Shown piece after piece: positions 33,201-64,000 of a stretch of DNA of 64,000 nucleotides. Origin of the DNA: Klebsormidium nitens (Eukaryota > Plantae > Klebsormidiophyceae); contig DF237240.1 of assembly GCA_000708835.1 (NCBI GenBank), positions 43,697-107,696 on the forward strand, given 5' to 3'. Each line of letters starts with the position of its first letter. The stretch's first letter is position 1. Both the position numbers and the translations under genes were made by a program. A model generated the notes under the pieces. That model saw nothing but the letters and a program-made list of their open reading frames with translations. It did not search any database and was not told where the DNA came from.

Positions 33201-36200
33201 TGCTTCGGACGTCCGAGTCGGAGAACTTCGACCGGACGAGAAGCGGGTGGTTGGCAATCTGCATCGGGTGGATAGTCAGGAGCGGCTTCAAAAGTTAGTA
33301 TAGAGACATGCGCTCAAAAAGTCCAGAATATCATCCAGCAGGGAATGCTTAAGGAAGTTTTAGAATGAACTTGTATCAGGTACGACTCACACGGTCAATC
33401 AGATTCCAGCGGATTCCTTTCAAGGAAAGTAGACCGGAGGCGCAAAACAGATTTCGGGCCTCGGCGAAAATTAATCGACGGGTCACCAAAATCTTGATAA
33501 GCCTTACGGGCAGGAAGGAGACGGCGACGCAAGAGAAACAGACAATCTGATGGTCGAACAGATTGAAATAGGAGGCATGGTCCCTATGTAAGTGTAAGCA
33601 ACCAAGCGAATGCAGCCCCTTGCAAAGACTGACAGTTTCATTCATGCTTACAGTATTCTGGACTGCGTTGCAGTCCAGAGAAACGTGTTGGCAAACAAAA
33701 CTTTCCTACGAGGAACCAAATTGTCGGGCAGAGAATGTCCGTTCGACCCAAACAAGGACTCGTCGTCAAATTCCACTTTTATCCTCGATAACGCTGTTCG
33801 TCGTGCATGTATTTCGAAGAAAAGGCAGATCATCCGACTCGCTCTCTAGGCTACGTGCTCGCCTATCAGATTGCTCGCTCTCTAGGCTACGTGCTGTCCT
33901 ATCAGATTGGCCTCGTCGAACTGGAACAGCGCAAGTATATGCCTTTCGGATCGCCCGAAAAATTGGACAGACGGGCTTTCCAGCACAGACCAAGGTAGTA
34001 AGAATCAGTCTGCTCAGTGAACATTCAGTACTGCTGGTTTCGGAGTCGCACCTTCCGCAGGTGCGTAAAGATGTTCGCCACCTGGCGCTTGGGCATCTTG
34101 TTCACCCGCCCCGTCGGCCCGGCCTGCGCCCGGTACTCGTCGAGCGCCGAGCGGTAGAGCTCCGCCTGGGCCGGGTGCATCGCGAGCGTTTCTACCTACA
34201 CACAAAAGACGGAGGAGGATGTGTGAATGCGCCTAGAACGTTCGGACAGAACGGTGACGCTCCTGAACCGGGTGCGTTTGCGACGGTTTCTACCTACACA
34301 CAGAAGACGCAGGAGGAGGTGTGAATGCGCCCGGAACGCTCGGACAAAGAGGTACAGCTCCGCCTGAGCCGGGATCGTTTGTACCTACACACGGAAGACG
34401 GAGGACGAGGTGTGAATGCGCCCGGAATGTTCGGACAGAGCGGTGAAGCTCCGCCTGGGCGGGGGCGGAAGAGGAGGGAGTGAATGCACTGGGAAAGTTG
34501 GGCGTGCGACTTCTATATGGAGAACGTCGGAGAAAATCAATCACCCTTTCCACAACCGAGAAGCCCGGAGACAGCTTTTCCGTCATCCTTTTCGTGACAA
34601 GAATGAGACCCAGTTTAGTCCTCGATGGTCGCCATGCCACGTAACAAGACCTAGATTGACCTTCTTAGAAAAGAAGCAAACGTCAAAAAAGTTGGACGCT
34701 GCCGTAACATCCTTAGTCAGAATCAAAATGGACATGGACCAGACGACTGAAGACTGCCTGAGGAAATCCAAACGGCGACATTGAGTTGACGCTCAAAGCA
34801 GCAGAAACAGCGCACCTTTTGCTGCTTCGCCACGAGCTGCTGCATGACGTCAGCTTTCACCCTGCGCAGCACGAAGGGCGCCAGGATCGTCTTCAGCCGT
34901 TCGATGAGGCCAGTCTGCGTCTCCGGACTGTCCGATCGGCTGCCGGCCGCCTCAAGGTCCTTGAGCTGGAAGATGTCAGGAAGCAGAAAGTTGAGCAGCG
35001 TCCACAGCTCCTGTACAGCCAAGAGAAGAGCGATTAGCAGGTGAATGTAATCGGAGTTAGGGTTCTTATCGCCCAAACAGCGGCCAGCGTGGCACTGCTT
35101 AAACTCAGTCAAAGTAAAACTCAAGTCCTGGACATTTTCAGGGAGTTTCTTCGGTTCGATGTTTTTCTCCTTCGAAGCAGATCTGAAAGTCTCAGCCCTC
35201 GGATCAAAAGGGAAGACAGGCACGCCGCTAGAGAAATACGGTTACAATGGCGGACGAAGAGGGACACCCGCCCAAGCGTGCTTTCACTGGAAAGGTTCGG
35301 GTTCTGGCGAAGACCGGTTTCCAGACGAAAGTACATTCTTGGCTCTGAAAGCACCAGCTCAGCGGCTGTCCGTGAGCTACGAAGATGGACCCGGAAGGCA
35401 ACAGTCCAACCAGTCATCGAACCATTTTTTGAGAACAGCTTCAGCTATTTGACGCACTTTGAAGAATGACAGAGAAAGTTTACCTGCAGATCGTTCTGTA
35501 GAGGCGTCCCCGTCAGCATCAGCCGGCACTTGGCAGCGGACGCGATTTTCCGCAGCTTCTTCGTCCTCGTACTCGAGTGGTCTTTCAGCAGATGCGCCTG
35601 TGAACCGCATCCGATTATGAAAGTCAGACCGGAGACGTCAGACGGCTTTGCACTGCACCAGATTCGCTCAGCGTGCATCCAGGGAGGGTCGCAATGTTGC
35701 AATCAAAATTTCCGGACCATCAAAGGCAATGAGCTCTAGCACCTGACATCAAGCACGATACGATGGTCTGCAGAAGTTCAGGTTGGGAAGTAAGTAACGT
35801 TATGTTGTCGTTTACAATGATTCGAAGTTCGAGCCAGCTTGGTAAGCACTCAGGAACCGTATGACCTGATGTTACACGCTGGATAGATGGAACCCGGGAA
35901 GAGACGTCGAGACTGCAACGAGGGACTTGCCTCGTCCATCACAACACAGTTCCAGTCGAAGCGCCTCAGGAAGCTGCGGTCTTCCACAGCCAGTGTACTG
36001 AGACAATGGAAAGAGAACAGTCAGCTTCGACGAGCCGCTTCCCGTTTGCTTGGCCGTGCTCAGCCGACGATTTCCCAGCAAGCGAGTGCGAGAAAGTATG
36101 GCAGCATACCAAAAACAGGAAGCGAGGGAAGAAGTTTTGGCTGCAGGCTTCTACTCTACCACGGCCACTAACCAAGACTCGGCGCTGCCTGATGGACTGA

Positions 36201-45686: not shown

Positions 45687-48600
45687 TCAAGAGTCAAGGA
45701 CAGGTTGCCCCAACCGGTAGTCGGCCCAAAGCGCCATGATGTGGTCCCGGTCACTGACGAAATACGCAACAATGCCCAGAGCGAACGCAGCGCTGATGCA
45801 CCCCTGCAGGAAACACATAGCATACCGTCAGAATTGCCGGGCAAGATCCTGCGGGAGCGTCCTGACTCAGGTGCTTCGGTTGTGACATAGCGCCTTGTTT
45901 GTCTGAACAAAGAAGATGAGGGCATGTGTAACTGTTGAATCGATCGTGCAGATGTCAAAAAAGCGCTCCTAAGCTAGTGGTAGGCGGATACTTGCGCAAA
46001 GTTGGTCACTCCACCTGAAACGGAAGAGTGCCCCGAACAAGATATCATCCCAAACAAGGACTAAGAGACACACAACCCCTGCGGTTCTCAGTCGCTTCAG
46101 CGCGGCTGGCGACGAGGCACACGCAGCTGGTCACAGCAGTGAAGTGCTAGATATACTCTACCAGTAAAACTAGTAAAGCAATTGCCCAATCTGAGATCAT
46201 GTAGAAGATAGGACAACTGGGTGACATACTAGCGCGAACCGATAAGTGAAAAGGATGAGAAGGAAAACGATCGATGAAAAAGGCACCGAAAGAGCGCTTA
46301 CTGCAACAAGGCTCGCCGTTAGGCCTGGCCGCTCCCGGGGGTTGTGGGGGAAGAACCAGAGAATCGCGCCAACGTACCAGAGGAGGTTGAAGAAGAAACC
46401 AAAGATGAACCTGTAACACAGAAAATGGGCTTAAAGCAGGTGCAGGCAAAAAGCCCTCTTGACGCTGACTCGAATGCAGGGGAGAACCTCGACAAAGAGC
46501 AAACATGTTAAGGTTCGAACGAGAGCCACATTAAAATCCGACAAAGCCAAGATCAGAAAACCGTATCAGAGGCATTCCCAAATGACGACAATGCAACACC
46601 GATCACAAGCCGGGGTCTAAGCTCTTCGAAAACCATCTAAGACGCTGGCTTTTGAATCATTGCCGAAGGATCGCTGGAGTTGCTGGAGCTACACCAAGTA
46701 CAGCGCATCTGCCTAGAACTTGAAGACACAAGGGGCTATTTTGAATGTGGTAGAATGAACGTAGATTGGCAACTGCCTAGAACTTGAAGACACAAGGGGC
46801 TATTTTGAATGTGGTAGAATGAACGTAGATTGGCAAGAGGTAAAAAGTGAAGGAATTAGGACAATAGCAGTACTGAGAACGAGCTTGCTTAGGCACCTGA
46901 CGTGGCTTGGATTTCAGAAGGGCGTGAGAAACACTTTATGTGAGTGCTGGAACGGGGAAGCTGAAAGCAGAACAGGCGACACGTCACCAAACGTCCCCCC
47001 TATGCTGGGACTTGGGGGTTCACTGCTCCTGGCCGTTTCAAGCCGCTGCGGACTTGTTTAAAGGACACAAGACGGAATTGCTCACCGATTCCTAACGAAA
47101 GCTGCAAGGCGATCACCGACGCAAGCTTCTCAGAGTGTGCTGGCAAGATGATTGGAGCGTAATCTGTAGAGCCTAACTTAATCCCGTATCGGAGGCCAAA
47201 TGACCAACCATAATACGAGACGTCATCCTAAAGACAAACATTGTAAGAGAATGCAATATTTAAAGGGGGCACAGATGCTCACAGGAACCACCCAATACCG
47301 CAACCGCAGCACGGCAGGGGCCTGTCGTAACCGTACTCTCCGCTCAGCTCGTGATACTCGTAACCACCCGGTCCGGTCTGCAACAAAAAGGAAGAGTGGT
47401 TTCAGACTTGGTTGTTCTTGAATAGTGTCAAAACTGCAAATAATGGAAGAACAGTGGGGACTGAGTCTGGTGGTAGATTCTGACAGCCCGAACAGACATT
47501 TTCCTCATCCCGCAGGTGAAATGCTATTGCTCGTGAAGTAAAGCTGCACCAATGGGGACCAGACTGAGCCAGAACACTCTTGATATTGTTGCACAGAGTA
47601 TACAAATTGATATGGACTGCAGTCAATAAACCCTGGAACTGGTTCATTTTTCTAAACACTGGCTGCGACTCTGTACCCAATAACTTTAGTGGGGAAGTTG
47701 CAGCTGGACGCAGTACACTGTCTTGAGCTCCACAAGCTCCTCCAGCCACTACACTCCCTCCACTGGGCATTGCAAACAAGTGGTCACTTCGTCGAGTCAA
47801 AGCAAGATTCTGCACCATTGAACACAAGGACCCACCACAGAGTAGCCGGGCTGCGGAGGCGCCTCTGCCTGCCAGTACTCAGGACGCGATGTCATCTGTG
47901 GCTGCTGCTGATAGTGCGTTTGCGACTGGGGCCGCCCCCCCCGAGTGTACTGCTGATATCCCGTATAAGGTATATAAGCGGGCGGCTGCGCCTCCGTCAA
48001 TGGGGGGGCAGAAGGGGCCTCACTGCTACTAGGGGCAGCCTGCAGAGAATCAGGACAAAGTCAAACTCTGGGTCTAAGCAAATTGAAGAAAGACCCTCAC
48101 CACCTGCTCTTCTGATAGACTACTCAGCATTGAGGAGCGAATGGTAGCTCCTTGATAAACTTCTGTGGCATTTGGCAGCATCAGAATCACAGTGCACAAT
48201 CTCTGTTATGGTGGCATGCTGAGGAGCGGCATGTCAGGTAAGGGGCACTTTTCAAGCTCGCAGAAGGAGCAGGATTGTGCAGGTAATATGCAATGCCGGA
48301 ACCACATGCCCTTCCTCTGCACCAACTTCTAATCGAGGCAGTCAAAAGTGCACGGTATATGTACAAACGGAGCCTTTGATGCGCAGCGGTTCTTGAAGCT
48401 TCGAGGAGCACAAGGAAATAAGCGGCTGAAAATTGTTGTGACGGCTCTCGAAGGAGTCTTGACAGCTTCAGGCAACACACTCTTACCTTCATGGGTACTC
48501 CTCCAAAACCCTAAAACTCGACTTCAAAAGTGGACCTCAACATGCGGTGGAACGTGGGGCAAAGAACAACTTGGTCATGCGGAGTATGAAAACCCAGAAC

Positions 48601-48826: not shown

Positions 48827-50638
48827 GAAGGCCCCTGTAAAGTTTTTGCACTCCCAGAAGAGACCTGTCAACCTGAAGCATGCAACCCTAGCCCCCTGCC
48901 AACCACTCACACGCTCTCCCTCTCCAAAGACCGTCTTCCTCAGAATCCAAGTTCTCGCGCCCTCAAACTTCAACACGATTTCGAAGTGCTCAGCAATTCA
49001 AGAGCCAGCGCAAGCTACACAGTGCAGAGGGCACAAGTGCGAAGGTTGCGGGTCCAGCTGGCGCGCGACCGCGAGGCGCGCCGCCCGCGCTAGACTCTGA
49101 GAGTGCAGTTGCCCAACTCCCTCGGGGAATCGCCCGTAGTATAAGCTATCCGCCATAAGGGCTCTGAGGGCCAGCACTCACCATTACCGCGCTGTGGCGG
49201 ACCGTTCCCATCCGGTTCCTCCTAAAGCACTCCCTCAGGCCCCACACACAATGCCAATTAGCCAATGGTCATCAGCAGAGAGAGCAGGCTGGGTAGATTG
49301 TGGTTGAAGCTTTGCTTCAGCCTTCAGCTCATAAAAGTCAGTGTGGTTGGCACTTCAAGGCGTTGAAGCAAGTCCGGCCACAGAGCCGGCTCCGAGGCTC
49401 TGTGGCGCCTTGCGGCAGATCTCTAACCTGCTTGCACCACTGCCAAGTGTCATTCCAGAAGCAAGAAGATGCTTCTCTGAGTCAGCAACTTGATGACTCA
49501 GCACAGCTGGCGGCGGCACCCGATGGCGCTGCCTGGCGTCCTCTGGCAGCTTTCTGAGCTCGTTTTGATGGGTTGCAATGGTCTCCAACTACATTTCTCA
49601 AAAGAACAAAGGGTCCATTTCTCAGGAGAGTCTTGTGGCAAGCTCAAAAGCAGGAAGACTGTGGTCGGCGCGTTGTGTACGCACGCGTTTAGACATGCTC
49701 AGGTAAGTGTTTTGCTTCTGTAGCTCTCAAACATCAGGATCAAGCACCTCTTGTACAGGGCCGCGCGCTTGGGAATTGCTAACCAGCATTCAAAACACTT
49801 GATGGTCTGTGCTGTCTGCTGTAAGTGGAATGCTTTTTGTCTGCCGTAAGTGGAATGCTTTTTGTCTGCCAGAAGGGGCTTTCTGTCAGGCCTCCTTAGT
49901 ATACTGGGTCAGCCTGACGATTGTGGACAATACCAACATGCACATGTGCCATGTGGGATCGCCGCCAGTTCCAGAGTAATGGGTTTGCAAATGCATGTTG
50001 GCGAGCGCCATGAGCTCTCAAACACGTCTCCAGCCTCATGCATGTCCTGCACTCATCACAATGGACTTCCTTTTTCCATGGGTTTGTCTCCACACAAAAG
50101 CACTTTGGTCAGGGGCAGGGATCAGATCACCTGAGGCTTTGATTCTGATCCGTTAATACTTTTCTGCATGCAGGGTGGTTGCCCACAAACAGCGGAGTGT
50201 GTGGTCAGCAGCGCCGCGCACCGGGCTTTGAGGTAAGCCCTGTGCTTAGGCTTCTACGCATCTGCTGCCTGCCGACCTGCGCACTTGCAGGCTCACAGAA
50301 TTGTGTTATCAAAGCAGGAGTCACTCAGGCGATGGCCAACATCCACCCCCCGGGCCACCAGGATCATCGCTCAATCATGCGTCCGTCAACTCCGAGGGGT
50401 CCCCTGAGTATTGTCTGGTCGTGTTTTGCAGCAGATGGCAGAGACAACTACACCGCCGCAGCAGGAGTCGGCAGCCTCACTGTTTGATGGCACCCCTGCC
50501 GCTGAATTGCTGCCTTCGACTCTGGTGAGCTCACCAAACCTGATGGCTCAGATTCTGTTGCGTGGGAGGGGCGCATAGTCAAGTCCTGGGACATGGCATG
50601 GACCAAGGGAGCGATACGTGCTGTACAAGTGGAGTGCT

Positions 50639-51326
50639 GACAATTTGCATTGGCGTAGAAGGTCGAATGCATAGATCAGTGGGTGCAGATTGACGACCCC
50701 ATGCCGAGCGCTTTCTGGGTTCTTGTGAGAGAGAGGGATTCGAGGAGCTGACAAATTGCATGGTTTTAGAGGCTTGAATGCATAGACCAGTGAGTGCAGA
50801 TTGTCAGCCCCATGCCGGGGGCTCTCTTTGGTTGTTCTTCAGTTCATGGACCGAGGGGCTGACAATCTGCATTGGTTGAGAAGCGACAATGTAAAGACCA
50901 GTGAGTGCAATTTGTCACCCCCATACCGGGTACTTTCCTAAAGGGCTTCTGTGGAGGAGCTGACAATTTGCATTGGTTAAGAGGCTTCAATGCATAGACC
51001 AGTGAGTGCAAATTGTCCGGCCCCATGCCGGGCGCTTTTCTTGGTTCGTCTGGAGTTATCTAGCTGACAATTTGCATTGGTTGAGAAGCTTCAATGCATA
51101 GACCAGCTGTTGCAAATTGTCGAGCCCATACCGGGCACTTTTCTGGTTCTACTGGGAGCGATAGAGGGAGGTTCTGTCAATCTGCATCAGTTTAGAGGGT
51201 GGATTGCATAGACCAGCTGGTGCAGATTGTCACGCCCATGCCGGGCACTTTTCCTGGTTTTACTGGGAGCGATAGATCTAGGTTCTGACAATTTGCATTG
51301 GCTTAGAAGGTCGAATGCATAGACCA
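50639..51326 (+). repeat. Array of 7 palindromic units (104-115 bp period): 11-bp arm, 34-nt spacer, inverted 11-bp arm
   Basis: Left arms G(A/T)CAA(T/A)(T/C)TGCA at 50639, 50750, 50861, 50962, 51066, 51176 and 51287. Right arms TGCA(G/A)(A/T)TTG(T/A)C at 50684, 50795, 50906, 51007, 51111 and 51221. The last unit is cut by the N gap. Confidence 0.93.
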
Positions 51327-51680
51327 NNNNNNNNNNNNNNNNNNNNNNNNNNNNNNNNNNNNNNNNNNNNNNNNNNNNNNNNNNNNNNNNNNNNNNNNNN
51401 NNNNNNNNNNNNNNNNNNNNNNNNNNNNNNNNNNNNNNNNNNNNNNNNNNNNNNNNNNNNNNNNNNNNNNNNNNNNNNNNNNNNNNNNNNNNNNNNNNNN
51501 NNNNNNNNNNNNNNNNNNNNNNNNNNNNNNNNNNNNNNNNNNNNNNNNNNNNNNNNNNNNNNNNNNNNNNNNNNNNNNNNNNNNNNNNNNNNNNNNNNNN
51601 NNNNNNNNNNNNNNNNNNNNNNNNNNNNNNNNNNNNNNNNNNNNNNNNNNNNNNNNNNNNNNNNNNNNNNNNNNNNNNNN
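51327..51680. other. Assembly gap (354 N)
   Basis: Run of N directly after the palindromic array. Confidence 1.
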
Positions 51681-54600
51681 ACTGCTGCGAGCCCAGCGCA
51701 CGCTAGCCCAGCTGCCACGAGCCAGGCCCGGCCCCCAGCTGGTGGCGCAACCAGGAAAGCGAGGAGAGCGAGGGAGGAACTGGCCAGCTACCTCTTTGGG
51801 GACAAAGGTGAGAGCGGCACCTTGATCGGGTTGGGCTGATCGAAGCACCTGATCGGCCCTTTGCGGGAAATCAGATTCAAAGCGTTGGGGGGGCACTTTT
51901 GCTTAAGGGTCCTTGAGTTTGCAACTGTTCAGGACCTCAGAGCTCTTGTGTGTATGTCTAGGAATACGAGAAGGCGAGCTTCTACGCCCACACGAGTCAA
52001 CCAGGGCTTCACCTGTTCTCGTTTTTGATCCCAACTCTTCGTGCTTTCTTTTTCAGTTCCACACAGCTACCTCTGCGGAGAATGCAGCAACCCCGCGACC
52101 TTTGCGGTGCGCGGGAGCAAGGAAGGGAGCAACCTCAAGTACTTCTGCGGTGTGCATCGCGAGGTCACGGGCTGCTTCAAGATCGAGAAGACCCGGACAG
52201 GTGAGCCCTGTGCAACTGCCGGTTTGTGTACCACCGACACATTTGTATTGATCACTCGGCCAAGAGCTGCACCAGGCCCAAGCATGCAAGTATGCAGAGT
52301 TTGTAGGCATGTTGGCGGGCGTTCGCCGGCCTGTGTGTCCTGCATGTGAGCGCTCGTAGTAAAGACCTGTGCTTCTTGCTTTTTCAGAGTGGGCACGTGA
52401 CTGTGGAGTGTACAAGTTGAAGGCAGAGCTGGCGCGAGCGCTTGACGAGGAGTCGCGGCTGAGGTGCAATCGGGGTGAGGGTTTGTTTGGTGCAGAAGAA
52501 CGTGCCCTTGACTTTTGATTCAACGGACAGCACAAGATACCCTACTTTGCCAAGGCTATCCTCAAGTCGCACTTGACCTCTATTGACGCGCAGCTGTTTC
52601 AACCTTGTCGAAAACGAACACCCGTCAAGCTCTCGAGCTGTTTGCTTACATCTCCAGTTCGATGCGACCTTTCTACTAGCATGCAGAACATGACACTTTC
52701 CTTTTCCTCCACAGATTGTAACGGATGGCAGGAAAGCGGATACTGGGGGGATGCAACACCAAAAAGCAGACTCCTGATAGGTAAGTCGCTCGGATCATCA
52801 GATTGGGGCGATGAGACTCGGCTCACATCTGGTCCCCGAACCATAGGTGTTGCGCTCAGCATCTGTTGAAACTTTGAACGTTGGGCGGCGGTTCAGAAAA
52901 GGTCTCAACTTGTGCGCAATATGGTGTTTGAAGCTCAAAACGGCAGCTTGAGCCTTGACCCTTCAAAAGTCCGCGCTTATGTAGGCGCCTGCTCTTGCTC
53001 CGTTGAGTTTTGTCAATTCTTCACGGTCGTGAATGAAGGTCTGCCTATCTGTGTCAACAGCTAATGCTGTCCGGCTGACCCTTTGCAGCAAAGCTCTTGA
53101 TCATGGGTGGAATCGAGAGCAACCCAGGATGGTCATCGTCAAATGAAGCCAGCCCGGAAGGAGAGCGTCCTTCAGCATCAGAGGAGACGCACCAGCATCT
53201 GACGGCGGCGTGGCCGGAGCTCCGCATCCTCGTGATGTGAGCAACCTTTGACGTGTTTCAGTCAATCTCAGGGATGACATTGCTGTGTCGGAACCAGTTG
53301 ACCAGTTGACCAGGCCCAGCAGGCAATAGCCCCGGATATCAAGAAGTGGGCTGTCAAGCCTCTGTCCAAGGGCTTTCTGGGCACGGAGAAGACAGAGGGA
53401 AGGGGTCGAGTCAATTTGCACTGGCTTGAAGAATTGACTGTATAGAATCTGAGGTGCAAATTGACAGCCCAGGCATTTCGCTTCCCATCCTACGACCTTG
53501 GTTTTGATTCAGCGAGCAGGTGTATTGACCCCGCGCATGCCATCGTACCTCATTCGACCCACACACCCCTTGCATGATTGCTCCCTTAAAAGCGTACGTA
53601 TGTTATTAGGCCGCTTAAAATCATTGAACAAAAGGCTGCAAGACGGGACCGCCAGAATATGGAAGCTCCAGAACGTAACTCTCTATCTCTGCTTGCAGGC
53701 CGCAGCCGTAACTTCTGACGCCAACGGCGCCCTCGCAGACATGATCGCACACGCTGAGGTGCAAATGAACTTGCCTGCATCCGATGTGGACACGAGAAGG
53801 CCGCCGGAGCAGGTAAGAGGCCCATCATCTCTAGTGTACTTCCCTCCACGAGTGATAGATCCCTTCAAGCTGCGTTTCGTGACCAGGCATGAAGTTTTGG
53901 TCGTTGCTTCGTGAGCTGGTCAGCTTGTGGGCCTAATATGCATCATCCAGTGTTACTGAATAGGGGGGGCAGGGTGTGCAGGTGTCGTCAGAAGCGGGAC
54001 CGTCGAAGAGGAGGAGGAAGAGACTCGTCAAGGTCTCAGAACTTGCCAGCGGAGCCTCGGTAGAACTTGCTGCAGGCAGCGTGGCCCAACCCGCTGCCCG
54101 CACTGGCGCAGAGTAAGCACATGTGCCCGACTTCTAGACACGGTATCAAGCCTTGCTGGGGTGTTGCTAGGAGGGAGTTGCGCGCGCACAGAGTGGTTAT
54201 TCTAGTGGAAGCACATGCAATTATACGCATCCCAAGAACCTGTCAGGTTGATCACCAGTGGGTAATCAACCCCCTGACCGTGCTCTCCTTCTGCTTGGTA
54301 TCCAGGGAAGCAGGAGAGTTGGAAGAGGACCTTGATGATTCGTCCGAGCGGGCCGCGGGCAGCCGGCGCATCAGGCGCAGGGCAATGGAGGAGCGAGTGG
54401 TCGTCGACTTCTTTGCAGAGCGCAGCCAGCAGAGAGAGGCTTGGGCGGCCAGAGAAGAGGAGATGTTCGGCCCACCCTCCTCACTAGAGCAACACGATTC
54501 TGCTACAGATGTTCCAGAATTGGAGGCCTTGGCAACGTGAGGCCCTGCTCTAAACTTGGCTTATCCTACTGTCTCTCCAGGAAGTCGCTGCAGTCAATGA

Positions 54601-57600
54601 AGTCTTTCAGCCTGGTCAAGTAGGTTCCAGTTGCGAAAACTAGTCGCATGCTTTTGCAATGGTTCCAAACCCCGGGTCCCGAACCCATTGCCAAACAAGG
54701 TCTGAAAAGTGTGGTTGGGAGGTCAGAGCTCAACCGCTTCTTGCCGCTGCAGCGACGATGCCGAGGCCGAAGAGCAGGAGCCGCTGGGGAGGCATAGTCC
54801 AGCACCCACTGCGCCCGACCTGGTGAGCCCAGCGCTGCCTTTCAAGGAGTACGGACCGTGCCTTTGAATCTTATTAGAGCGGTCTGTAGAATTTGACTTG
54901 CAGGATTTTCCGTGCAAGGCGGGGCCTGGCACGATCGTGGCGAGTTTGAAGCGAAGCGGACTGCTGACAGATCTGAAGTATTTCATGCAGCTCAGTAATG
55001 CTTCAATGATCGAATGTGTGTTGGGTTGTTGTTGGCATTCACTCTTACACGGAGTGGGCTGCAAAGCTGGCTTTGCTTTTTGGGAGCTCACCCTACCGCA
55101 CACACCCCCCCGCATTGAGACCGCCGCAGTTTCTGGTGCTCGTCCAAAGCTCACCCATTTGCAACCTGTTGGCCGTCAGGTACGGAGCCAGACAGCGAAG
55201 CAAGGCCATCGACGCCAGTGGCTCCGAAGACTGGTCGGCCGACATCCAAAAAGCGACGGTAAGCTCGTTGGTCGGTATTTAACACGTATCTTCGCGTCCC
55301 CGACACAAAGGCGACTCTTGTGTATATATTGTATTCCGTCAGTTGCTTCCTTGGGTACTGTGAATAACAAAGGCATCCTTTGGGGTCCACTTGATTCCCT
55401 GGAGTTCTCCCAGACTGCTGCTTTAGGTCCCTTCAGCAGCAAACCGTTGACCAACAGTGGCCTGCATGATTGTCGTGTATTGATCCACTCTCTCTTCTTG
55501 CGCATCTACAGCAAAAAGGCAAAAGCGAATCCTGTCCCCATGGACGAGGCGGCTCGGGAGGCCGGTCGAGCGGCTGCGGCAGCTCATCTCCAAGCTGTGG
55601 GGGCACTGAGGCCCTCGAGAACGCAGCGCGAGGGGCAAGCCGTTCATCAAACGGAGCTGGGTGATTTCGGAGGCCCGCCTCATGCACCCGCCGTCGTAAG
55701 TTGCCGTGGAGCATACTTTTTCATTGAAGCGGTTGAGACTTTCGGGCACATGTGTTTGCCGTTGTCTCACGTCAGTTAATCAGCTTGTGCGCACAGTTGT
55801 TCCGCTTGGCCTTGGCAGGCATCTAGGCGACCTTTCTTCTGAGCCCGAGGCTTTAAGTGCTGTCAAACATGCAGTTTGCTGTGATAGCCCTGGGCGTTGA
55901 AGACTTGCGAGCCTTTTCCAAATCTCCATGCCTGACTCTGCATAACTGGTCCGGCTTGCTCTTGAACGTGAGTGCGAACCCCTTTTCTTTGTCTTTCTGG
56001 CGCAGGGGCTGGTGACCGACGCTCCCATCCAAAACGTTGGGGCCCTGGTCGACCGCCTGAACGCCAAGCGGGACGCCGAAGAGGCGGCCGCGCGCGAGGC
56101 GCGGCTGAAACGCTACCGGCGCGCGCGACCCCTGGGTGCTCCACGTGGGGCGGGGAATTCCCTGGCCCGCACCATCCAGGACCCGAGCCCTTCCTCTCCT
56201 TTGCCCCCTGTCATCCTCTCTTCTCGGGAGGAGGAAGAAGCCGCCCCAAGCACAGCGCAGACCCCCCCAGCAGCCTTCTCTTCACCGGCCGTGGAAGATG
56301 AACGGGCCCCGCCGTCGCCGCCGGCCGACGATCCGGGTTCGGTTTTCTCCCTCTCGCAGCCCCATGAGCCCCCCTCCCCCGCCCGGCACCCACCCTCTCC
56401 CCCCCTCGCTGACCAGCCCGAGGAGCCCCCGATCATAGCCCCGCCTCTCCTCGAAAACGCACAGCCCGAGGTGGTTCCCAGTCAGCCCCCAGCAGCCGCC
56501 CCTTCCCCTTTCCCAACCCACCAGGAGCAGCCGCCCGTCGACCAGGCGCTTGCAGCCGACCCGCCAAACCAGCCCCGGGCAGCGGAAACAAGCCGGCCCG
56601 CTACAGCGGAGTCGTCCGCAGAGCTGTCGCCCGCACTTCCGCCCACGGAGCCGCCCGCGCAACTGCTTGGGAATCCCCCTCAGGCTGCGTCGGTCGAAGA
56701 TAGTGGGCCCGGCTGGTGCAAGAAGCTAGTGGAGGCGCTCCGGCAACGGCAGGCAAACGGGCGTGCAATCGTGGTGGCGGAGGATGTGCACCAGGAGGGG
56801 GCAAAGCGCTATGGCAGCTTCAAGGATGTTGCGGCCTTGGTGGCGCACCGGAGGTCGCTCGGTGCGTTCGCGCACCTGTACGAGCTCATCCAGGACGATG
56901 CCTGCTGGCGCATCTACTTCGACCTGGACTTTTCGCTCCCAACCGAGGACCCGAGCGACTTCGAACGGCGCCTGGAGGCTTTCCACCTGGTCAGAGACCG
57001 GGTCCTAACCTCGGTGCTGACTGTCCCCGAGGGTGCGCTCCGTTTCCAAGCTTGCGAGGCGCACGGTCCAGCGCGGCCCCCGAAGCAAGAGTTTAAGTAC
57101 AGCGTGCACGAGGTGCTGGAGGGGTTCTACCTAAGGGGGCTGGAAGCCAGGAGGGCATTCGGGAAAGCCTTTCGGTGCTTCTTGGAGAATCCCCCGGACG
57201 ACCTAAAGCCGAGCATCGAGCTCCTCCGGAAGGACGGCGGATCCGCCTACATCTGGGACGGGTCCGTCTACGGGCAACATCGCTGCTTCCGAATGTTGAG
57301 GTCCTCCAAGTTCGGGGACCGTTTCCGCTCCCTCCTTCCCTCCGAAGGCAGCTCCGAGGCGATCGCTGACCACCTGGTCTGCCTCTACTCGGAAGCGGAG
57401 CTGGCTGGGTCCACCCGGATCAGCGCCGACCTTCTCGGAGAGTGGGCGTCCGCGCGGCGCGAGCCGCCTGCCCCGGACCGCGTGGGGGCCTTCCGGCAGA
57501 GGGCGCTCGCCCTCGACGAGGCGAGCACCTCGGAGGGGCCCGGCGAGGACCTGAGCGCGCAAGAGCGGGCCGTCCTCCTCGCCCGCTACCAGGAGGACCA

Positions 57601-60600
57601 CGCGGGGGCCGAGATCGACCGGGTGGTGCAGGAGCGGCCGGGGCTGTTCTTTGTCCACTTTCGCGCGCCCCAGCCCACGTGTTGCATCGCGGGCAGGCGC
57701 CACACGTCCCCAGGCAACCAGAACCCGTACCTGATCTACAAGCGAGACGAGCCGCGCATCGCCCGCTACCAGTGCTTTGCCAACAGCTGCAGGTAAGGCG
57801 CCCTTGTAGTGAGCCGAAATCTGAAAAGCGCCCAGCATGGCTCGGTCGACAATCTGCACTGGTCGCTCTTTACATGCGAGATTAGAAGGTGGTGCAGATT
57901 GTCGGGCTCTTTCAAGGTTGACCAGCTCAGCAAATTGGAGAAGCATCAAGCATGGCCGTGGGCTGTCAACTTGCACAAGGGTCTCTACACCGAAGCCTCT
58001 TAAACCAATGCAGATTGTCAAGCTCTTTGAAAGCTTCTCTGAACCTGGTCTTAGCAGTTTTAGAGAAGCGGCAAGCATGGCTCGGCCGTCAATCTGCACA
58101 GGCCGTTCTTTACATTCATGCTTGTAAGTCGGTGCATTTTGTCAAGTTCTTCGAATTGGATCGGCTCTGTACTCCACGAAAGCGCACGGCATGGCTTGGC
58201 CGTCAATCTGCACATGCCGTTCTTTACATTCATGCTTGTAAGTCGGTGCATTTTGTCAAGCTCTCCAAGTTGGATCGGCTTTGTACTTCAGGACGGCATG
58301 TTTTGGCCGTCGATATGCACAGGTTGTTCTTCACATTGAAACTTAGATGGTACTATTCTCAAGGCCAAAGTCAGGTTTCAGGCATTTTCAAGGCCACGGT
58401 AAGGTTGCTTTTGCTACGCTGTGGGCCTGGTTGCGGGTCTGTTGTGGACTTAGGTTCAAGGCTGCGGTCAGGCTAGTTGGGGGGGCGCGGTCGCGCTTTT
58501 GTTGAGGCGTGGTGAGGCTGAATCGGGAAGGCTGTAGTCAGGCTGTAGTCAAGCTTCTGCGGGCCGCGTTTGAAGACGCAAACCCGGCTAATTTAAGGGC
58601 CTCGATCAAGCTCTCTTGAGGGCGCATCAGACTGGATTCGGCTGACTGGTGTGACCGACATTACGACACCCTGCATGGTGTTAGGTGCTTGGGCTGTTGT
58701 TGAGAGCGCCTCTTGTTCCCTCTTTGCAGGGGCGAGTGCCGCGTGCTGCCCCTGGACATCCTCACCACGCTGGGATGGACCGAGGACTACGAGGAGAACC
58801 TGGGAATGCGCCCCTACCCCGCGTTCAAGCTCGCTCACGTGCGCAAGCGAACCATCCTGATTTCGGCCAAGAAGGGGGTCGGAAAGTCGAAGGCTTTCAT
58901 GGAGTGGCTGGTGGCCATGGTTAAGCTGAACCCCGGCCTCTCCTTCGTCCTGATCGGGGCCAACATCTCGCTGTCCCGCAAGTACCATCAAGATCTGGTG
59001 GACGCGGGCGTGGAAGGCGTGGTGCTGTACCTGGAGGCGCCCCCAGGGCCAATCACTGCCTCTCGTGCCGTGGTCTGCATCAACTCCATTCACCGCGTGC
59101 GCGCCAAAATGGACGTCGTGGCAATGGACGAGATGGACATGGTGCTCACCAACCTCAACTCTGAGGTCATGAGCCAACGGGGCCGGGTGCTGTCCTGCTT
59201 GGAGGCGGCTGTGGCGGGGGCGAAAGTCGTCATCGGCATGGACGCCAACATCGACTGCGCGCGGGTGATGGAGTACCTGTTCATGGCGCGGCCGGATGGG
59301 GTCCTCCACACCATTCGGAACAGGGGCCTGTACCCGGCCAAGCGGCAAGCGACCATCCGGATCTTTCCGCCAGGGAGCGGGCTGCTCGACTGCATCGGCG
59401 CCGCAGTACGGGATGTGCTGGACAGGGTCGCTCGAGGCACGAAAGTCGTCGTGAGTTCTTCTTAAGACCCTCCTGGCACTAAGAAGCCTTATGCACAGCG
59501 CGCTCGATTTCATCCCTGTGATCTTCTCAAGCACAATGAGAGAGCGTCTATGTCCAAGGTATAAGGCAAGTCATGCGAAGCATCTTCTCTGCATATTCAC
59601 CTTGTGGCTTTGGGGATAGGTGTAGCATGGAGTAGCTGTTTCTGTGCACTCCACCTATGATGGGAGCCTAGTGAGCACTGTCTTGCCAAACATGACACAA
59701 TTTGTCTTTTGAGGCCGTTTTGGGGGGCAGCTCTGGTGAAAGGCCGGTTCGGGGGATAGTTATAGGGCCAATTTTGATGAGGGTCAGTTTGGAGCCATTT
59801 TTTGGGGCCAGTTTCAAATTGAGTGTACGCCAGTGCGAACGGGTCTCTGTAAGGAACGATCGCATCAGCTGCTTTTGCCTTAGGTCTTTACGTTCTAAAA
59901 GCTGACGACCGTGCTCTCGACTCTTGTTGCGCAGTGCCCGTCGACCTCCAAGCGCTTCGTGAAACACCTCGAACACGATTTCAACGTCGAGAACCCACCT
60001 TCCGAGTCCGATCGACGCGGCGTCTTCCTGCACGCCGACAAGAGGTCGAAAGCCGACGAGGAGTTCTTCCAGAAGGCGATGGCCGACCCGGACACCTACT
60101 TGGAAGCGGACTGTGTGGCTTTCTCTCCAAAGCTCGGCCCGGGTGTCTCGAAAGAGAAGCCGTATGCTGAGGAGACGGTCGCCTTCGCCCTCAACAACCT
60201 CAACGGCCCTGCCGTTGAGACGCTGCTCCAGCAGCATGCTCGCTTCAGGACGGTCACTAACTCCACCATCTACTACAAGCAGGCGGTGAGCACTGCAGTG
60301 GACCTGCCGCGCTCTACTGAGGCGGTCTTTCAAGCCATCGAACGGGACGACAAGCAGATTGTCAAGATGCTCGGCGACGCAGCCGGCTTCCAGTTCCTGA
60401 GGGGTTCGCAGGGTATCTGCGACCGCTCCTCCGCGAGCTGCGTCTTGTACGCAAACAACATCCTCGCCAAGGTCGAAAGCTATCTGGAGTACGTGCCAAA
60501 GCTGAAGGCCGACCTCGAAAAGCAGGGCTACGAGGTGACGGTCGAGCACGTCGAGCCAACGGTGAGGGTGCCGAGTAGTGAGGCGAAAAACTGGAAAGCG

Positions 60601-62816
60601 CCCGGCATAGCTCGGTCGACAATCTGCACAGGTTGTTCTTTACATTCCAGTCTATTAGGTGGTGCAGATTGTCAAGCCCCTCAGGTGGCCCTTACAGTTG
60701 CAATGATCAAGTACTAGGCTTGAGTAGGGTTAAGCTAATGGACTGCTTTTGGGCCGCGGTCAGCGTGATCTTGGGGCAAGGTCAGGCTGGTTTGGCGTCT
60801 GCTGTGGGCATTGGTTTTGGTCGGGTGTGGGCTTGGGTTCGGGGCACGGTCAAGCTGTTTTGGGGTGGGGCTTCAGGCTGATTTGTGGCCGCGGTGAGGC
60901 TGGTTCTGTGTTTGCTGTGGGTCTGGTTCCGGGGCAGATTTCGGGGCCGTTAATAAGCAAACTTGGGGCGCAGTCAGGCTGATTTTGAAAGCGCGTTTAG
61001 GCTGGTTCGAGTCTGCTGTGGGCCTGGATTTGGGACTACTTAAATTGGAGCCGCGATCAAGTTGGTCTTTGAGGCGCGGTCNNNNNNNNNNNNNNNNNNN
61101 NNNNNNNNNNNNNNNNNNNNNNNNNNNNNNNNNNNNNNNNNNNNNNNNNNNNNNNNNNNNNNNNNNNNNNNNNNNNNNNNNNNNNNNNNNNNNNNNNNNN
61201 NNNNNNNNNNNNNNNNNNNNNNNNNNNNNNNNNNNNNNNNNNNNNNNNNNNNNNNNNNNNNNNNNNNNNNNNNNNNNNNNNNNNNNNNNNNNNNNNNNNN
61301 NNNNNNNNNNNNNNNNNNNNNNNNNNNNNNNNNNNNNNNNNNNNNNNNNNNNNNNNNNNNNNNNNNNNNNNNNNNNNNNNNNNNNNNNNNNNNNNNNNNN
61401 NNNNNNNNNNNNNNNNNNNNNNNNNNNNNNNNNNNNNNNNNNNNNNNNNNNNNNNNNNNNNNNNNNNNNNNNNNNNNNNNNNNNNNNNNNNNNNNNNNNN
61501 NNNNNNNNNNNNNNNNNNNNNNNNNNNNNNNNNNNNNNNNNNNNNNNNNNNNNNNNNNNNNNNNNNNNNNNNNNNNNNNNNNNNNNNNNNNNNNNNNNNN
61601 NNNNNNNAGCCTGGTTTGGCGGCTATTTGTGAGGTCCTTAGAACTTGCAGAGCATAACGTCTTTTGAGGAGTCGACATTTGGGGCTCACCCCGCCACCGG
61701 ACTGTGTTTGCTTCCGTGGAATGATCGGACGTCCCACCATTTCCTTTTCCAGGACGGCGTCGGGAGCCCGCCCCCGGAGGTGCCCCTCGGCTTCGACGCG
61801 GAGCCAGAGCTCCTGACGGCCGAAGAGTGGCGAGCGAAGTACATCATCAGCTCGGAGCAGTACGAGATCCTGTGCGAAAGGCCTGAGGACCTGAGCCCAA
61901 AGGAGCAGCTCCAAGAGTTTCTGTTCGAGATGGTCACGAAGGAGTACAAGGTCGACCCCAACCGGGTTGATCACGACTTCTACACCCGCTTTTGCGCTGA
62001 CGAGGACGAGGCGAAGGCGACAAGAGAGGCCCACGCAAACTATCTCAGGTAAGCGCCTCATTCCAGCTGTGCCCCGTCTCTGGAGCAAGAATCGAAGCCC
62101 TCTTGCCGCCATCAACTTATGTCCAAAGTGAACGATTAGTGAACTTCAAGTCTGCAGCATTTGTCCAGAGCCAAGGTTTCCGCTCATCTTTCTTCTTCAG
62201 CAGCAATGACGTCGTACGTCCGAAGTCTCATGTTTTTGCTGTCCCTCTGACGCTTCTCGTGACTTGCAGGTTTCGTGAGCACCGCTTCGATGCCCTCGTC
62301 GCGGACCTGGACAGAGCACTTGGGCATGCCAACGAGGAGGGCGTGGTTCAGGAGTACGTTCAGGAAATGCGCGACCCTGCCAACCGTGTGCCGTTTGCGG
62401 TGCGCGTGCTTGCCTTCCTCCTTGAATGCAGGGAGGAGCAGCTGAATCATGAGGCGGAGCGGTGGGAGGTCTCGGAGGAGCGCGTGCAGGCTGCCTATGC
62501 GGAGCACATCGGGCCCAGCAAGACCCGGTTGAAAACCATCTTCAACCTGTACGGTTTTGTGCAGCAGACCTCCAGACCCTCGCAGGCTGCAGATGGAAAG
62601 GTGAGGGAGAAGAAAGCTCAGAAACGGAATGCAGTAGGGAACGTGCTCAGAGCGGGCCTCGGGATCGAGCTCCATATGGGCTCGAGGAGCGGCGGCAAAT
62701 TCAAGCATCCCCACGTGTTGACGCCCGCCATCTGGTTGAGTCTGCATGAGCGGTACGGTTGGTTCAATCCGGAGACGGTTGCTAGGGAGGAGTGCATGAT
62801 CGATCCAAGAAGGTAG
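51681..62816 (+). CDS. Intron-rich primase-helicase fusion: Cys/His finger, linker, PrimPol/NCLDV-herpes-type AEP, UL52-type zinc finger, UL9-like SF2 helicase (>=1827 aa; 5' end upstream or in the gap)
   Basis: Exons: 51681-51807, 52057-52200, 52388-52474, 52715-52780, 53089-53231, 53699-53812, 53982-54112, 54306-54536, 54581-54619, 54753-54822, 54904-54994, 55180-55258, 55512-55695, 56006-57792, 58730-59450, 59935-60561, 61753-62048, 62270-62816. All are GT-AG and phase-compatible (5484 nt). AEP motifs: RIYFDLD, KYSVH, WDGSVYGQHRCFRMLRSSK. Finger: CCIAGRRHTS..N..YQCFANSC. Helicase motifs: SAKKGVGKS, AMDEMD, IGMDAN, VVCPST, CVAFSPKLGPGVS, QQHARFR. The core (56006 onward) is high confidence; the small 5' exons are less certain. 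Confidence 0.85.
53410..53465 (+). repeat. Single palindromic unit (11-34-11) in an intron
   Basis: GTCAATTTGCA-N34-TGCAAATTGAC, a perfect inverted pair. Confidence 0.9.
57848..58319 (-). repeat. Four palindromic units plus a half-site, in reverse orientation, in the intron between the primase and helicase exons
   Basis: Arm pairs at 57848/57893 (34-nt spacer), 57965/58009 (33), 58088/58133 (34) and 58202/58247 (34). The flanking AAAAGCGCCCAGCATGG is the reverse complement of the CCATGCCGGGCGCTTTT trailer seen in the 50.6-kb array. Confidence 0.9.
58370..58660. repeat. Degenerate G/T-skewed minisatellite (GCGGTCAGGCTG/TTTGGGG-like) in a helicase-gene intron
   Basis: Recurrent GGTCAGGCT, GGTGAGGCTG and GTCAAGCT words. 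A similar sequence occurs at 60720-61081. Confidence 0.6.
60618..60673 (-). repeat. Single palindromic unit (11-34-11), reverse orientation, in an intron
   Basis: GACAATCTGCA-N34-TGCAGATTGTC, preceded by AAAGCGCCCGGCATAGCTCGGTC. Confidence 0.9.
60720..61081. repeat. Degenerate G/T-skewed minisatellite running into the second gap
   Basis: Recurrent GCGGTCA(G/A)GCTG, TTTTGGG and GCTGTGGG words, related to 58370-58660. Confidence 0.6.
61082..61607. other. Assembly gap (526 N)
   Basis: Run of N inside a helicase-gene intron; it could hide an in-phase exon. Confidence 1.
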
Positions 62817-63073
62817 TGATTCATAGGCATTGTGGACAGTGCGCCAGGTGAAGAGTCGATCAATTTGCATCGCAGTGCGTGAATAGCGTCTTAGAAGGCC
62901 ATATTTATTATTGGTCTTAAGATTTATTGGAGCGATAAGGCAGATACAAAATTCAAATAAGATTGAAGGATGTCGCAATGAGACTGGCCGCCTGTGCTCG
63001 TTTGACTTTGCCCTGAAAGCACGCAGTGCTCTACTTTGTGACATGCATTGTTCTGAATGGTACGAGCTAAGCC

Positions 63074-63621
63074 GTCAATATGCACTGCTGTGGAAGCTTC
63101 GTTGTATAGCATCATGGTGCAAATTGACCCCCACCTTCGAACCAAACCGGGCACTTTGTGTTGGTTTTAGCGCATAGCTTGAAGCCGTCAATTTGCGTTG
63201 TTGTGAAGGCTTCTTTGTATAGCACGATGGTGCAAATTGACGGGCGTTCCCTCTAACCATGCCGTGCGCTTTTTACAGCGATGTTGTACTTGGATAGGTA
63301 GGAAGCCGTCAATCTGCACTGCTGTTAAGGCTTCTTTGTATAGCACAGATGGTGCAGATTGACGGAGGCCCCTTTGAACCATGCCGTGCACTTTAGTGGA
63401 TGGTAAATCCTGGTATATGCAGCCGTCAATTTGCCCCCTGGATAAGGTTTTGCTTGTTTAGCATGACGGTGCAAATTGACAGCCGCCGGGGGCCCCTCTC
63501 CAAAAGATCCGACCAGGCCAATTACTTCCTCAAATGGTGTCGTAAGATATAGTACGAACTCGTCAATATGCATGTGTGATGTGAAGACTTGCTTGTATAG
63601 TATATGATGGTGCAGATTGAC
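63074..63621 (+). repeat. Five palindromic units downstream of the primase-helicase gene
   Basis: Arm pairs at 63074/63118 (33-nt spacer), 63187/63231 (33), 63308/63353 (34), 63425/63470 (34) and 63562/63611 (38). Confidence 0.9.
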
Positions 63622-63728
63622 TCAGGCCCAGGCTTTGTGTGGGCCCATATCATTCAAGCTCGCGGGTCGCATACATACTTAGGAAAGAGCTCCGCTGAAT
63701 ACATCAACCTCGGGCCTTGAACCCTCCA

Positions 63729-64000
63729 ATGGAGCAACTTCCAAATGGACGCATGCTATGTCGAGCTGTTGGAGTCAGCTTTGAAGGCCGCCAAGACCTC
63801 GTTCGCAAGCTCCGACCCGGCCAGGATCTCGTGCTTCGAAAGCATTCGGGGAACGAACATGACATATACGCCATCGCAATATTCGACCCGGCGGATCGTG
63901 AAACTCCGTTAGGATTTGTTGGACGTGACATCAAACATCATAGAGTGTTCGACCCAGTTCGTAAAGAGACAGAGATGCCAGCACGAGTGCACCGCATCAA
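63729..64000 (+). CDS. HIRAN-domain protein, 3'-truncated by the window end
   Basis: Open from ATG 63729 to the end: MEQLPNGRMLCRAVGVSFEGRQDLVRKLRPGQDLVLRKHSGNEHDIYAIAIFDPADRETPLGFVGRD. This matches the HIRAN pattern V-G-x-x-F/Y...L-x-L-x-R...N-x-H/Y-D-x-x-A-I...L-G-F/Y-V. It is absent from the ORF track because there is no stop in the window. Confidence 0.75.
   Translation, partial: MEQLPNGRMLCRAVGVSFEGRQDLVRKLRPGQDLVLRKHSGNEHDIYAIAIFDPADRETPLGFVGRDIKHHRVFDPVRKETEMPARVHRI

What the first reader, a model, noticed from the sequence alone, without database searches (positions are those of the whole stretch)
50639..63621. Element-specific palindromic sites with fixed geometry (11-bp arm, 33-34-nt spacer, inverted 11-bp arm), about 17 paired copies
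Seen: the consensus G(A/T)CAAT(T/C)TGCA-N33/34-TGCA(G/A)ATTG(T/A)C occurs in the upstream array (6 complete units plus 1 cut by the gap), at 53410, at 57848-58257 (4), at 60618 and at 63074-63621 (5). Spacers and inter-unit DNA diverge strongly, yet the arms and spacing hold (16 of 17 complete units have 33-34 nt). Units sit only outside the predicted exons, and I found no convincing pair in the first 50 kb. Established: HSV UL9 binds inverted boxes flanking a spacer at oriS/oriL. Inference: these are selected cis-sites (origin-like iterons or hairpins) for the co-encoded UL9-like helicase-primase, or recombination sites. A tiny MITE that targets this locus is the alternative.
Basis: partly seen in the sequence, partly recalled or inferred. 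Interest (0 to 1): 0.85.

Follow-up and report, generated by a model that had tools for sequence, protein, structure and literature searches.

The report
Algal primase-helicase element with origin-like repeats
A multi-copy stretch of DNA in what is likely a Klebsormidium alga encodes a primase fused to a relative of the herpes origin-binding protein and carries 17 rigidly spaced inverted DNA sites outside that gene's exons, which would most plausibly be the protein's own docking sites for copying the element, although binding is untested.

Summary
Observation confirmed: 17 complete pairs of inverted 11-bp arms (13 x 34 nt, 3 x 33, 1 x 38), none in the first 50 kb, all outside exons. They are not independent palindromes. 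They are polar copies of one ~101-137-bp repeat: arm, 18 nt, conserved 7-nt core, 9 nt, arm, variable gap, third box. Seven arm bases are invariant in 34 of 34 half-sites, but only 6 of 17 pairs are perfectly complementary and the arms do not co-vary. That fits a protein site better than a hairpin. The host gene is an intron-rich PrimPol-like primase fused to a UL9-like helicase. The isolated C-terminal domain of an 80%-identical paralogue best matches the HSV-1 origin-binding domain (Z 6.3). Paralogues are numerous in Klebsormidium, and a 79%-identical HIRAN neighbour on other contigs has the same unit upstream. Best reading (0.45): cognate origin-like sites for the co-encoded initiator. Against: the spacer is not AT-rich, two introns share one copied repeat cassette, the unit resembles Helitron2 ends, no genome-wide scan was possible, and binding is untested. 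A classic MITE is rejected. Ten literature searches found no description.

The parts
49060..49175 (.). Approximate left edge of the multi-copy segment (not resolved to the base)
   Evidence: Contigs of other copies run off into unlike sequence at 49171-49174 in X2, X3 and X6, and at 49112 in X3, with only 9-22 loose letters
50639..51326 (+). Array A: 6 complete units plus one cut by the N gap, period 101-111; intronic at least in a paralogue
   Evidence: RNA-guess contigs of X10 and X15 skip 50490-52055
52057..52199 (+). Exon with a Cys-x2-Cys...Cys-x2-His motif (weak EsV_1_7_cys hit, E 0.026, below cut-off)
   Evidence: 47% to P0157 residues 288-332
53091..53242 (+). Exon with a 2A-like peptide motif (label recalled); one-base frameshift near 53180 relative to the laid runs, likely an assembly error
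53410..53465 (+). Single unit B, perfect 11-bp arms, 34-nt spacer, intronic
56006..57792 (+). Exon: proline-rich linker plus AEP (PrimPol-like) primase with DxD, sxH and a Cys/His zinc knuckle
   Evidence: PrimPol E 8e-4; family profile vs PrimPol E 1.6e-15
57806..58640 (-). Intronic cassette: 4 complete units (57848-58257), one degenerate unit (58293-58345) and a GT-rich ~23-nt repeat tract
58730..59450 (+). Exon: UL9-like SF2 helicase, first RecA domain (Walker A and B)
   Evidence: PF02399 E 1.7e-17; HSV-1 OBP E 4e-6; splice phases checked; RNA-guess contigs end at or join across the donor
59935..60561 (+). Exon: helicase second RecA domain (motif VI)
60575..61081 (-). Second copy of the intronic cassette: unit D (60618-60673) plus GT-rich tract; 85% identical over 99 bp to the first copy, both starting 14 nt after the splice donor; cut by the N gap
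61753..62048 (+). Exon: start of the C-terminal domain
62270..62816 (+). Last exon: C-terminal domain; in paralogue P0003 this region best matches HSV-1 OBP residues 536-820
63074..63621 (+). Array E: 5 units, period 113-137, between the stop codon and the HIRAN gene
   Evidence: same unit read through in P0163 and P0175 from other contigs
63699..64000 (+). HIRAN-domain ORF running off the window; the shared segment continues beyond 64000
   Evidence: PF08797 E 3.4e-5, just under cut-off; an X1 contig of 3738 bp covers 62472-64000 and extends past the end

Best explanation
The 17 paired sites are copies of one fixed-geometry repeat inside a multi-copy, intron-bearing algal DNA segment that encodes a primase fused to a UL9-like helicase, and they likely serve as binding sites (origin-like iterons) for that protein. 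SHOWN: the geometry; base-specific conservation without arm co-variation; confinement to the segment within this window; recurrence of the unit beside the HIRAN gene on other contigs; intact primase and helicase motifs. PREDICTED: a C-terminal fold like the HSV-1 OBP DNA-binding domain (modelled on an 80%-identical paralogue). INFERRED: a dimer of the protein would bind each gapped half-site (G-W-CAA-n-n-TGC-A), with the 45-bp centre-to-centre distance fixing two binding domains on the DNA. The helicase would open the duplex and the primase would prime host polymerases, re-copying the segment locally. Copies would re-enter the genome by host repair or by an integrase encoded beyond the window. 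Tandem arrays would act as multiple loading or copy-control sites, as iterons do (established for phage P4 alpha and plasmids; array detail recalled).
For: (1) 7 arm positions invariant in 34 of 34 half-sites, but only 6 of 17 pairs fully complementary; arm concordance equals the within-array shuffle (p 0.4-1.0). (2) Spacer 33-34 nt in 16 of 17; core at +18 in 14 of 17; the adjacent gap is 4-15 nt and periods 101-137. (3) 0 pairs in the first 50 kb; 35 of the 37 half-site matches after 50 kb belong to units. (4) HIRAN homologues P0163 and P0175 (one cluster, 79% identity; contigs of 1.2 kb and 193 kb) read through both arms with a 33-nt spacer. The scan of all 184 stored proteins gave 5 hits: these two, P0165 (near-identical copy, 34 nt) and 2 chance-looking hits with 28 and 36 nt. 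(5) The helicase-plus-CTD model (pLDDT 83.8) ranks HSV-1 OBP first, E 4e-20. The isolated CTD model (pLDDT 88.5) has HSV-1 OBP 536-820 as its only match with Z >= 5 among 48,161 chains (Z 6.3, rmsd 4.7, 176 aligned; next 3.5). (6) OBP binds inverted boxes whose helical phasing matters (PMC12543377, PMC13458718, passages). (7) Multi-copy: 12 K. nitens entries on 9 scaffold numbers, and a second near-identical copy with an insertion at 49366-49396 in X2 and X3.
Against: No binding data. The spacer is not AT-rich (55%), unlike oriS. Z 6.3 is middling for a helical domain, Foldseek gave the isolated CTD no match at E <= 1e-3, and the sequence profile matches OBP only over residues 85-416. Whether the SAP subdomain itself aligns was not seen. 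Two introns hold one copied cassette, so there are about 4 independent sites and the units move as part of a larger piece. Paralogue P0168 (81%) shows no arm translation in its 22-codon read-through of the intron that holds unit D. Only 2 of 25 viral AEP-UL9 loci have a >=3-copy fixed-spacing dyad family, against 2 of 48 control loci. No integrase or transposase was seen in the window. A genome-wide scan was impossible.
Confidence: 0.45

Rival explanations
1. The unit, or the unit plus GT-rich tract, is a short non-autonomous mobile element of Helitron2/Helentron type. Its arms are asymmetric terminal inverted repeats read by a transposase encoded elsewhere; it merely accumulated in, and travels with, this segment.
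For: Helitron2 has 8-15-bp asymmetric inverted repeats, the 3' one 20-30 bp from the end and upstream of a hairpin (PMC3627910, passages). Array A units have arm 2, then a 3-6-bp stem-loop, then a T run. No target-site duplications. A cassette was copied between two introns at the same offset. It occurs in both orientations and in tandem.
Against: The 3' stem-loop is not kept in arrays C and E, where the third box survives as sequence (folding energies mostly -0.3 to -3 kcal/mol). Spacer length stays fixed while its non-core bases fall to 42% identity. In X2 the summed contig depth over array bins (96-165) is like that over exon bins (115-145), not many-fold higher (weak, only copies >=85% alike count). 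None in 50 kb of intron-rich host DNA.
Confidence: 0.25
2. The sites are bound by a different dimeric protein (a host transcription or chromatin factor, the element's N-terminal Cys/His domain, or a recombinase or transposase encoded beyond 64 kb). They would regulate expression or serve as recombination sites rather than as origins.
For: All DNA-side evidence shows only that some protein likely reads the sites. The segment continues past the window. Directly oriented arrays flank most of the gene and inverted ones lie inside it. A Cys/His motif is encoded upstream.
Against: The only co-encoded protein seen with a fold known to read inverted DNA boxes is the UL9-like one. The 33-34-nt spacer is far longer than the 6-8-bp spacers of tyrosine-recombinase sites (recalled). 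No recombinase domain appeared in the Pfam scans of 7 window ORFs or of P0157 and P0005.
Confidence: 0.2
3. The units act as single-stranded DNA or RNA hairpins (for example primase start sites), not as duplex binding sites.
For: 11-13-bp stems can form; cores fold at -2.7 to -14.5 kcal/mol as DNA. Hairpin-bound OBP exists (PMC12543377, passages).
Against: 11 of 17 stems carry mismatches, and arm variants do not co-vary beyond array ancestry. No Rfam match at E <= 1. The units are spliced out or lie downstream of the stop.
Confidence: 0.1

Closest known systems
[quoted passage not shown]
   Same: SF2 helicase homology; predicted C-terminal fold; inverted 11-bp boxes at fixed spacing near the gene
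   Different: Fused primase; spliceosomal introns; spacer not AT-rich and 33-34 nt; 17 or more sites in arrays and introns rather than a three-box origin; nuclear multi-copy algal segment, with no virion genes seen in the window
Giant-virus AEP plus UL9-like helicase proteins (mimivirus R8 type; endogenous OBP genes in Ectocarpus, PMC2373305)
   Same: Same domain order; top viral fold hits are Pyramimonas orientalis virus, Marseillevirus and Samba virus proteins; nearest Atlas clusters are from Mucoromycota and Nucleocytoviricota
   Different: Belongs to a separate 22-row clade (SH-aLRT 97, quick tree) holding all the Klebsormidium-named proteins in the tree, with a shared intron position; fixed-spacing dyad arrays were rare beside viral homologues (2 of 25)
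Satellite phage P4 alpha protein and D5-type primase-helicase-origin-binding proteins (PMC4889955, passages)
   Same: One polypeptide with primase, helicase and a C-terminal origin-binding domain; repeated cis sites (P4 iterons recalled)
   Different: P4 alpha uses a DnaG primase, an SF3 helicase and a winged helix; no homology was tested or claimed
Helitron2/Helentron non-autonomous elements (PMC3627910)
   Same: Short asymmetric inverted repeats, a downstream stem-loop and T run in array A, no target-site duplication, tandem copies
   Different: Hairpin not conserved across arrays; rigid internal length; no RepHel gene seen in the window

Membership tests
UL9/OBP-like initiator | SF2 helicase homologous to UL9 with intact motifs | tested here: met
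   PF02399 E 1.7e-17; Walker A/B and motif VI present; family profile vs OBP E 3.5e-57
UL9/OBP-like initiator | C-terminal dimerisation/DNA-binding domain fold | tested here: inconclusive
   Best of 48,161 chains is OBP 536-820 at Z 6.3, next 3.5, but Foldseek found no match; modelled on paralogue P0003; SAP subdomain alignment not seen
UL9/OBP-like initiator | Sequence-specific binding of the cognate inverted boxes | not testable with these tools
   Needs EMSA, footprinting or DAP-seq
oriS-type origin | Two inverted boxes at fixed spacing | tested here: met
   16 of 17 at 33-34 nt
oriS-type origin | AT-rich spacer between the boxes | tested here: not met
   55% AT vs 47% window and 49% introns
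oriS-type origin | Initiates replication | not testable with these tools
   Only assembled contigs were available; depth is no copy number
Classic MITE | Target-site duplication flanking terminal inverted repeats | tested here: not met
   Flank match 0 in 13 of 17 units, 1-2 nt in 3, 4 nt in 1
Classic MITE | Homology ends at the inverted repeats | tested here: not met
   Third box conserved beyond arm 2 in 14 of 17
Helitron2 non-autonomous element | 5' and subterminal 3' asymmetric inverted repeats followed by a 3' hairpin | tested here: inconclusive
   Fits array A; hairpin weak or absent in arrays B, C and E
Helitron2 non-autonomous element | Dispersed genome-wide with an autonomous RepHel partner | not testable with these tools
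   No genome held
Endogenous giant-virus insert | Neighbouring viral core genes in gene-dense, intron-poor DNA | tested here: inconclusive
   The gene is intron-rich, and ORFs in the first 44 kb read by eye as ordinary plant-type genes (not scanned against a family library); the right part lies outside the window
DNA transposon (any known class) | Transposase or integrase gene, defined termini, target-site duplication | tested here: inconclusive
   None found in 7 window ORFs or in full-length paralogues; left end not resolved; right end outside the window

The most novel reading that the evidence does not exclude
This is an undescribed class of eukaryotic self-copying mobile element. It is built on a giant-virus-derived primase-UL9 initiator that gained introns, carries its own arrays of cognate origin sites and a HIRAN gene, spreads without a recognisable transposase, and has recently moved between Klebsormidium strains. 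Three runs of one study hold it at 99-100% identity, while the host pieces they show are about 96% identical.
Probability: 0.3. Interest if true: 0.9.

Novelty: new variant of a known kind. Interest (0 to 1): 0.7.

Why it matters
AEP-UL9 fusion proteins are common in giant viruses and in some fungal and algal genomes. I found no cognate DNA site described for them in my searches. Here 34 natural half-sites define the invariant bases, the tolerated changes and the exact spacing next to such a gene, so the question of whether these proteins are origin-binding initiators becomes a simple binding experiment. If the sites work as origins, the segment would be a nuclear element that multiplies by its own replication initiation, outside the usual transposon classes.

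Tried and rejected
Genome-wide scan: no assembly is held, so element specificity is shown only within the window and through protein read-throughs. The best unit-profile hit among all 154 loci has E 0.006. I treat these as unrelated; the collections simply gave no Klebsormidium copy. Close relatives of the gene were not found in viral contigs or prokaryotic genomes. Dyad arrays beside 25 distant viral AEP-UL9 genes: 2 of 25 vs 2 of 48 controls with a strict detector, which recovers only 3-4 copies per family in the window itself. A looser self-BLAST saw palindromes or repeats near many of them but had no control, so this is inconclusive. Rfam: nothing at E <= 1. ARAGORN: no tRNA. Classic MITE rejected. 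Hairpin selection not supported. Read-throughs of exon-C paralogues mostly stop before the unit position and tell little. No RNA holder is on record; the RNA label of X10 and X15 is a guess. Lack of cover of the host flank in X1, X6 and X7 proves nothing by itself, because records are filtered and depth is low. Contig depth cannot show over-replication. The Atlas look-up of the C-terminal domain did not complete. The tree is the quick version. Literature: searches found no description of this element or repeat; two searches were for background. Subscription papers, Repbase and supplements were not seen, and a Klebsormidium repeat library could already list it.
Full report
OBSERVATION. Allowing two mismatches per arm gives 17 complete pairs between 50639 and 63621, with spacers 13 x 34, 3 x 33 and 1 x 38 nt, plus a left arm at 51287 cut by an N gap. 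A pattern built only from the invariant bases, with any spacer of 20-60 nt, returns the same 17 and none before 50 kb; Markov simulations give 0.015 pairs on average, maximum 1 of 200. A unit profile adds one degenerate copy at 58293-58345 and nothing convincing in the first 50 kb.

WHAT THE UNIT IS. The pairs are polar copies of one repeat with period 101-137 bp. Its layout is arm, 18 nt, a 7-nt core, 9 nt, inverted arm, 4-15 nt, a third box, then a T-rich run. Arrays at 50.6-51.3 kb and 63.1-63.6 kb and the single unit at 53.4 kb face one way; those at 57.8-58.3 kb and 60.6 kb face the other. Seven arm positions are invariant in all 34 half-sites and three vary freely. Only 6 of 17 pairs are perfectly complementary, and left-right concordance is what array ancestry alone predicts (within-array shuffle p 0.4-1.0; global shuffle p 0.02-0.04). 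Between arrays the non-core spacer is down to 42% identity, yet its length holds. Fixed bases with free pairing and fixed spacing is the signature expected of a site for a dimeric protein (inference). The spacer is only 55% AT. There are no target-site duplications. A finding against independence: the introns starting at 57793 and 60562 contain the same cassette, a unit followed by a GT-rich tract. It is 85% identical over the first 99 bp and about 70% in the tract, and starts 14 nt after the donor in both. So there are about four independent sites, and units have been copied within the locus.

THE GENE AROUND IT. Phase-consistent exons at 56006-57792, 58730-59450, 59935-60561, 61753-62048 and 62270-62816 encode an AEP primase (family profile vs human PrimPol E 1.6e-15) and a UL9-like helicase (PF02399 E 1.7e-17) with intact motifs. 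Further upstream exons map from about 52.0 kb. Contigs from runs guessed to be RNA end at or join across these splice sites, some identical to the window and some from paralogues, and two skip 50490-52055, which holds array A. A HIRAN ORF follows at 63699. The only full-length close relatives found are Klebsormidium nitens proteins, 72-93% identical (6 hits among 2194 candidates). In all, 12 K. nitens entries on 9 scaffold numbers turned up, plus K. subtile transcripts. They fall in a 22-row clade (SH-aLRT 97, quick tree of 59 rows). In 8 of 9 aligned fragments the reading frame leaves homology at the same point as the window's exon, which suggests an old shared intron. The window is therefore likely Klebsormidium (inference).

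DOES THE PROTEIN HAVE AN ORIGIN-BINDING DOMAIN? A model of paralogue P0003 (helicase plus C-terminus, pLDDT 83.8) ranks HSV-1 OBP first in the PDB (E 4e-20) and giant-virus proteins first among viral models. The C-terminal 250 residues folded alone (pLDDT 88.5) had no Foldseek match. In the exhaustive alignment, however, their only match with Z >= 5 among 48,161 chains was OBP residues 536-820 (Z 6.3, rmsd 4.7, 176 aligned; next Z 3.5). That range is OBP's dimerisation and DNA-binding domain (PMC12543377 and PMC13483431, passages). The score is middling and shows fold, not function.

IS IT A DISCRETE, MOBILE UNIT, AND DOES THE REPEAT TRAVEL WITH IT? X2 and X3, which match the window throughout, hold a second near-identical copy with an insertion at 49366-49396. 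Contigs break away near 49171 in X2, X3 and X6. In three runs of one study (X1, X6, X7), listed pieces from 49.2-54 kb are mostly 99-100% identical, including the non-coding array, and X1 continues so to 64 kb. The few host pieces listed from 34-38 kb differ by about 4%. This hints at recent movement between strains, but mixed samples and filtered records leave it unproven. Gene callers reading upstream of HIRAN homologues on other contigs translated the unit by accident. P0163 and P0175 (79% identical HIRAN) show both arms 33 nt apart, and P0164 shows a left arm and spacer by eye. Paralogue contigs in X1 and X2 also lay on array A with rearranged units. The reverse test, whether the unit occurs away from the element, could not be run; public pattern scans returned only unrelated hits.

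MECHANISM. Best reading (0.45): the units are cognate sites for the element's own primase-helicase. It would bind the two half-sites, unwind and prime, so that the segment is re-copied; how copies re-insert is unknown, and no integrase was seen. Rivals are a Helitron2-like non-autonomous cassette (0.25), sites for another protein (0.2) and hairpins (0.1). The Helitron2 rival gains from array A's stem-loop and the copied cassette, and loses on hairpin conservation and rigid length. Earlier AI notes reported dyad or hairpin arrays beside giant-virus AEP-UL9 genes. My test on 25 other viral loci found fixed-spacing families at only 2, the same as 2 of 48 controls, so I do not count those notes as support.

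COMPARISON AND NOVELTY. It works like, at best, an initiator-plus-iteron replicon (HSV UL9/oriS; P4 alpha). It is not an oriS (AT-rich spacer not met), not a classic MITE, and not shown to be a Helitron2 or a giant-virus insert. The AEP-UL9 fusion is known, also in an algal genome (PMC2373305, passages), and NCLDV inserts are known in K. flaccidum (PMC5294986, passages and section 8). UL9-like helicases are also fused to AEPs in prokaryotic mobile elements (PMC5862659, passages) and occur in Borgs (10.1101/2023.08.01.549754, passages). An intron-bearing, multi-copy element with its own fixed-geometry site arrays did not appear in my searches, which do not cover subscription papers or repeat databases. 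Verdict: real feature, new variant of a known kind, interest 0.7; a new class of self-copying element is possible at about 0.3.

Noticed in passing
window 53091-53135: A 2A-like (ribosome-skipping) peptide motif lies in the N-terminal half of the gene. It ends NPGW here and in P0005 but NPGP in paralogue P0157, so some copies may split a Cys/His-motif protein from the primase-helicase. The 2A label is recalled.
   Followed up: partly
window 57806-58640 and 60575-61081: Two introns of the same gene share a repeat cassette starting exactly 14 nt after the splice donor in both; the reason for the shared offset is unexplained.
   Followed up: partly
window 49171-64000, runs X1, X6, X7: The element is near-identical, introns included, in runs whose listed host pieces differ by about 4%: possible horizontal transfer or a free form.
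   Followed up: partly
window 63699-64000: HIRAN-domain gene directly after array E; its two close homologues come from unnamed contigs. HIRAN binds 3' single-stranded DNA ends (recalled) and could be part of the replication module.
   Followed up: partly
window 49060-49093: GC-rich hairpin followed by CTAG near the left edge, like a Helitron 3' end on the plus strand; may be chance.
   Followed up: no
Atlas clusters: The nearest clusters to P0002 are PF02399 proteins of Mucoromycota fungi (268 and 51 members; phylum known for few), which may be similar nuclear elements.
   Followed up: no
L136, L140, L143 just after the AEP-UL9 ORF: Single 85-128-bp palindromes directly after the stop codon in three viral loci.
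   Followed up: no
window 476-758, 26649-26812, 34181-34457, 46705-46836: Unrelated tandem repeats in the host part of the window (periods 125, 21, 91, 64).
   Followed up: no
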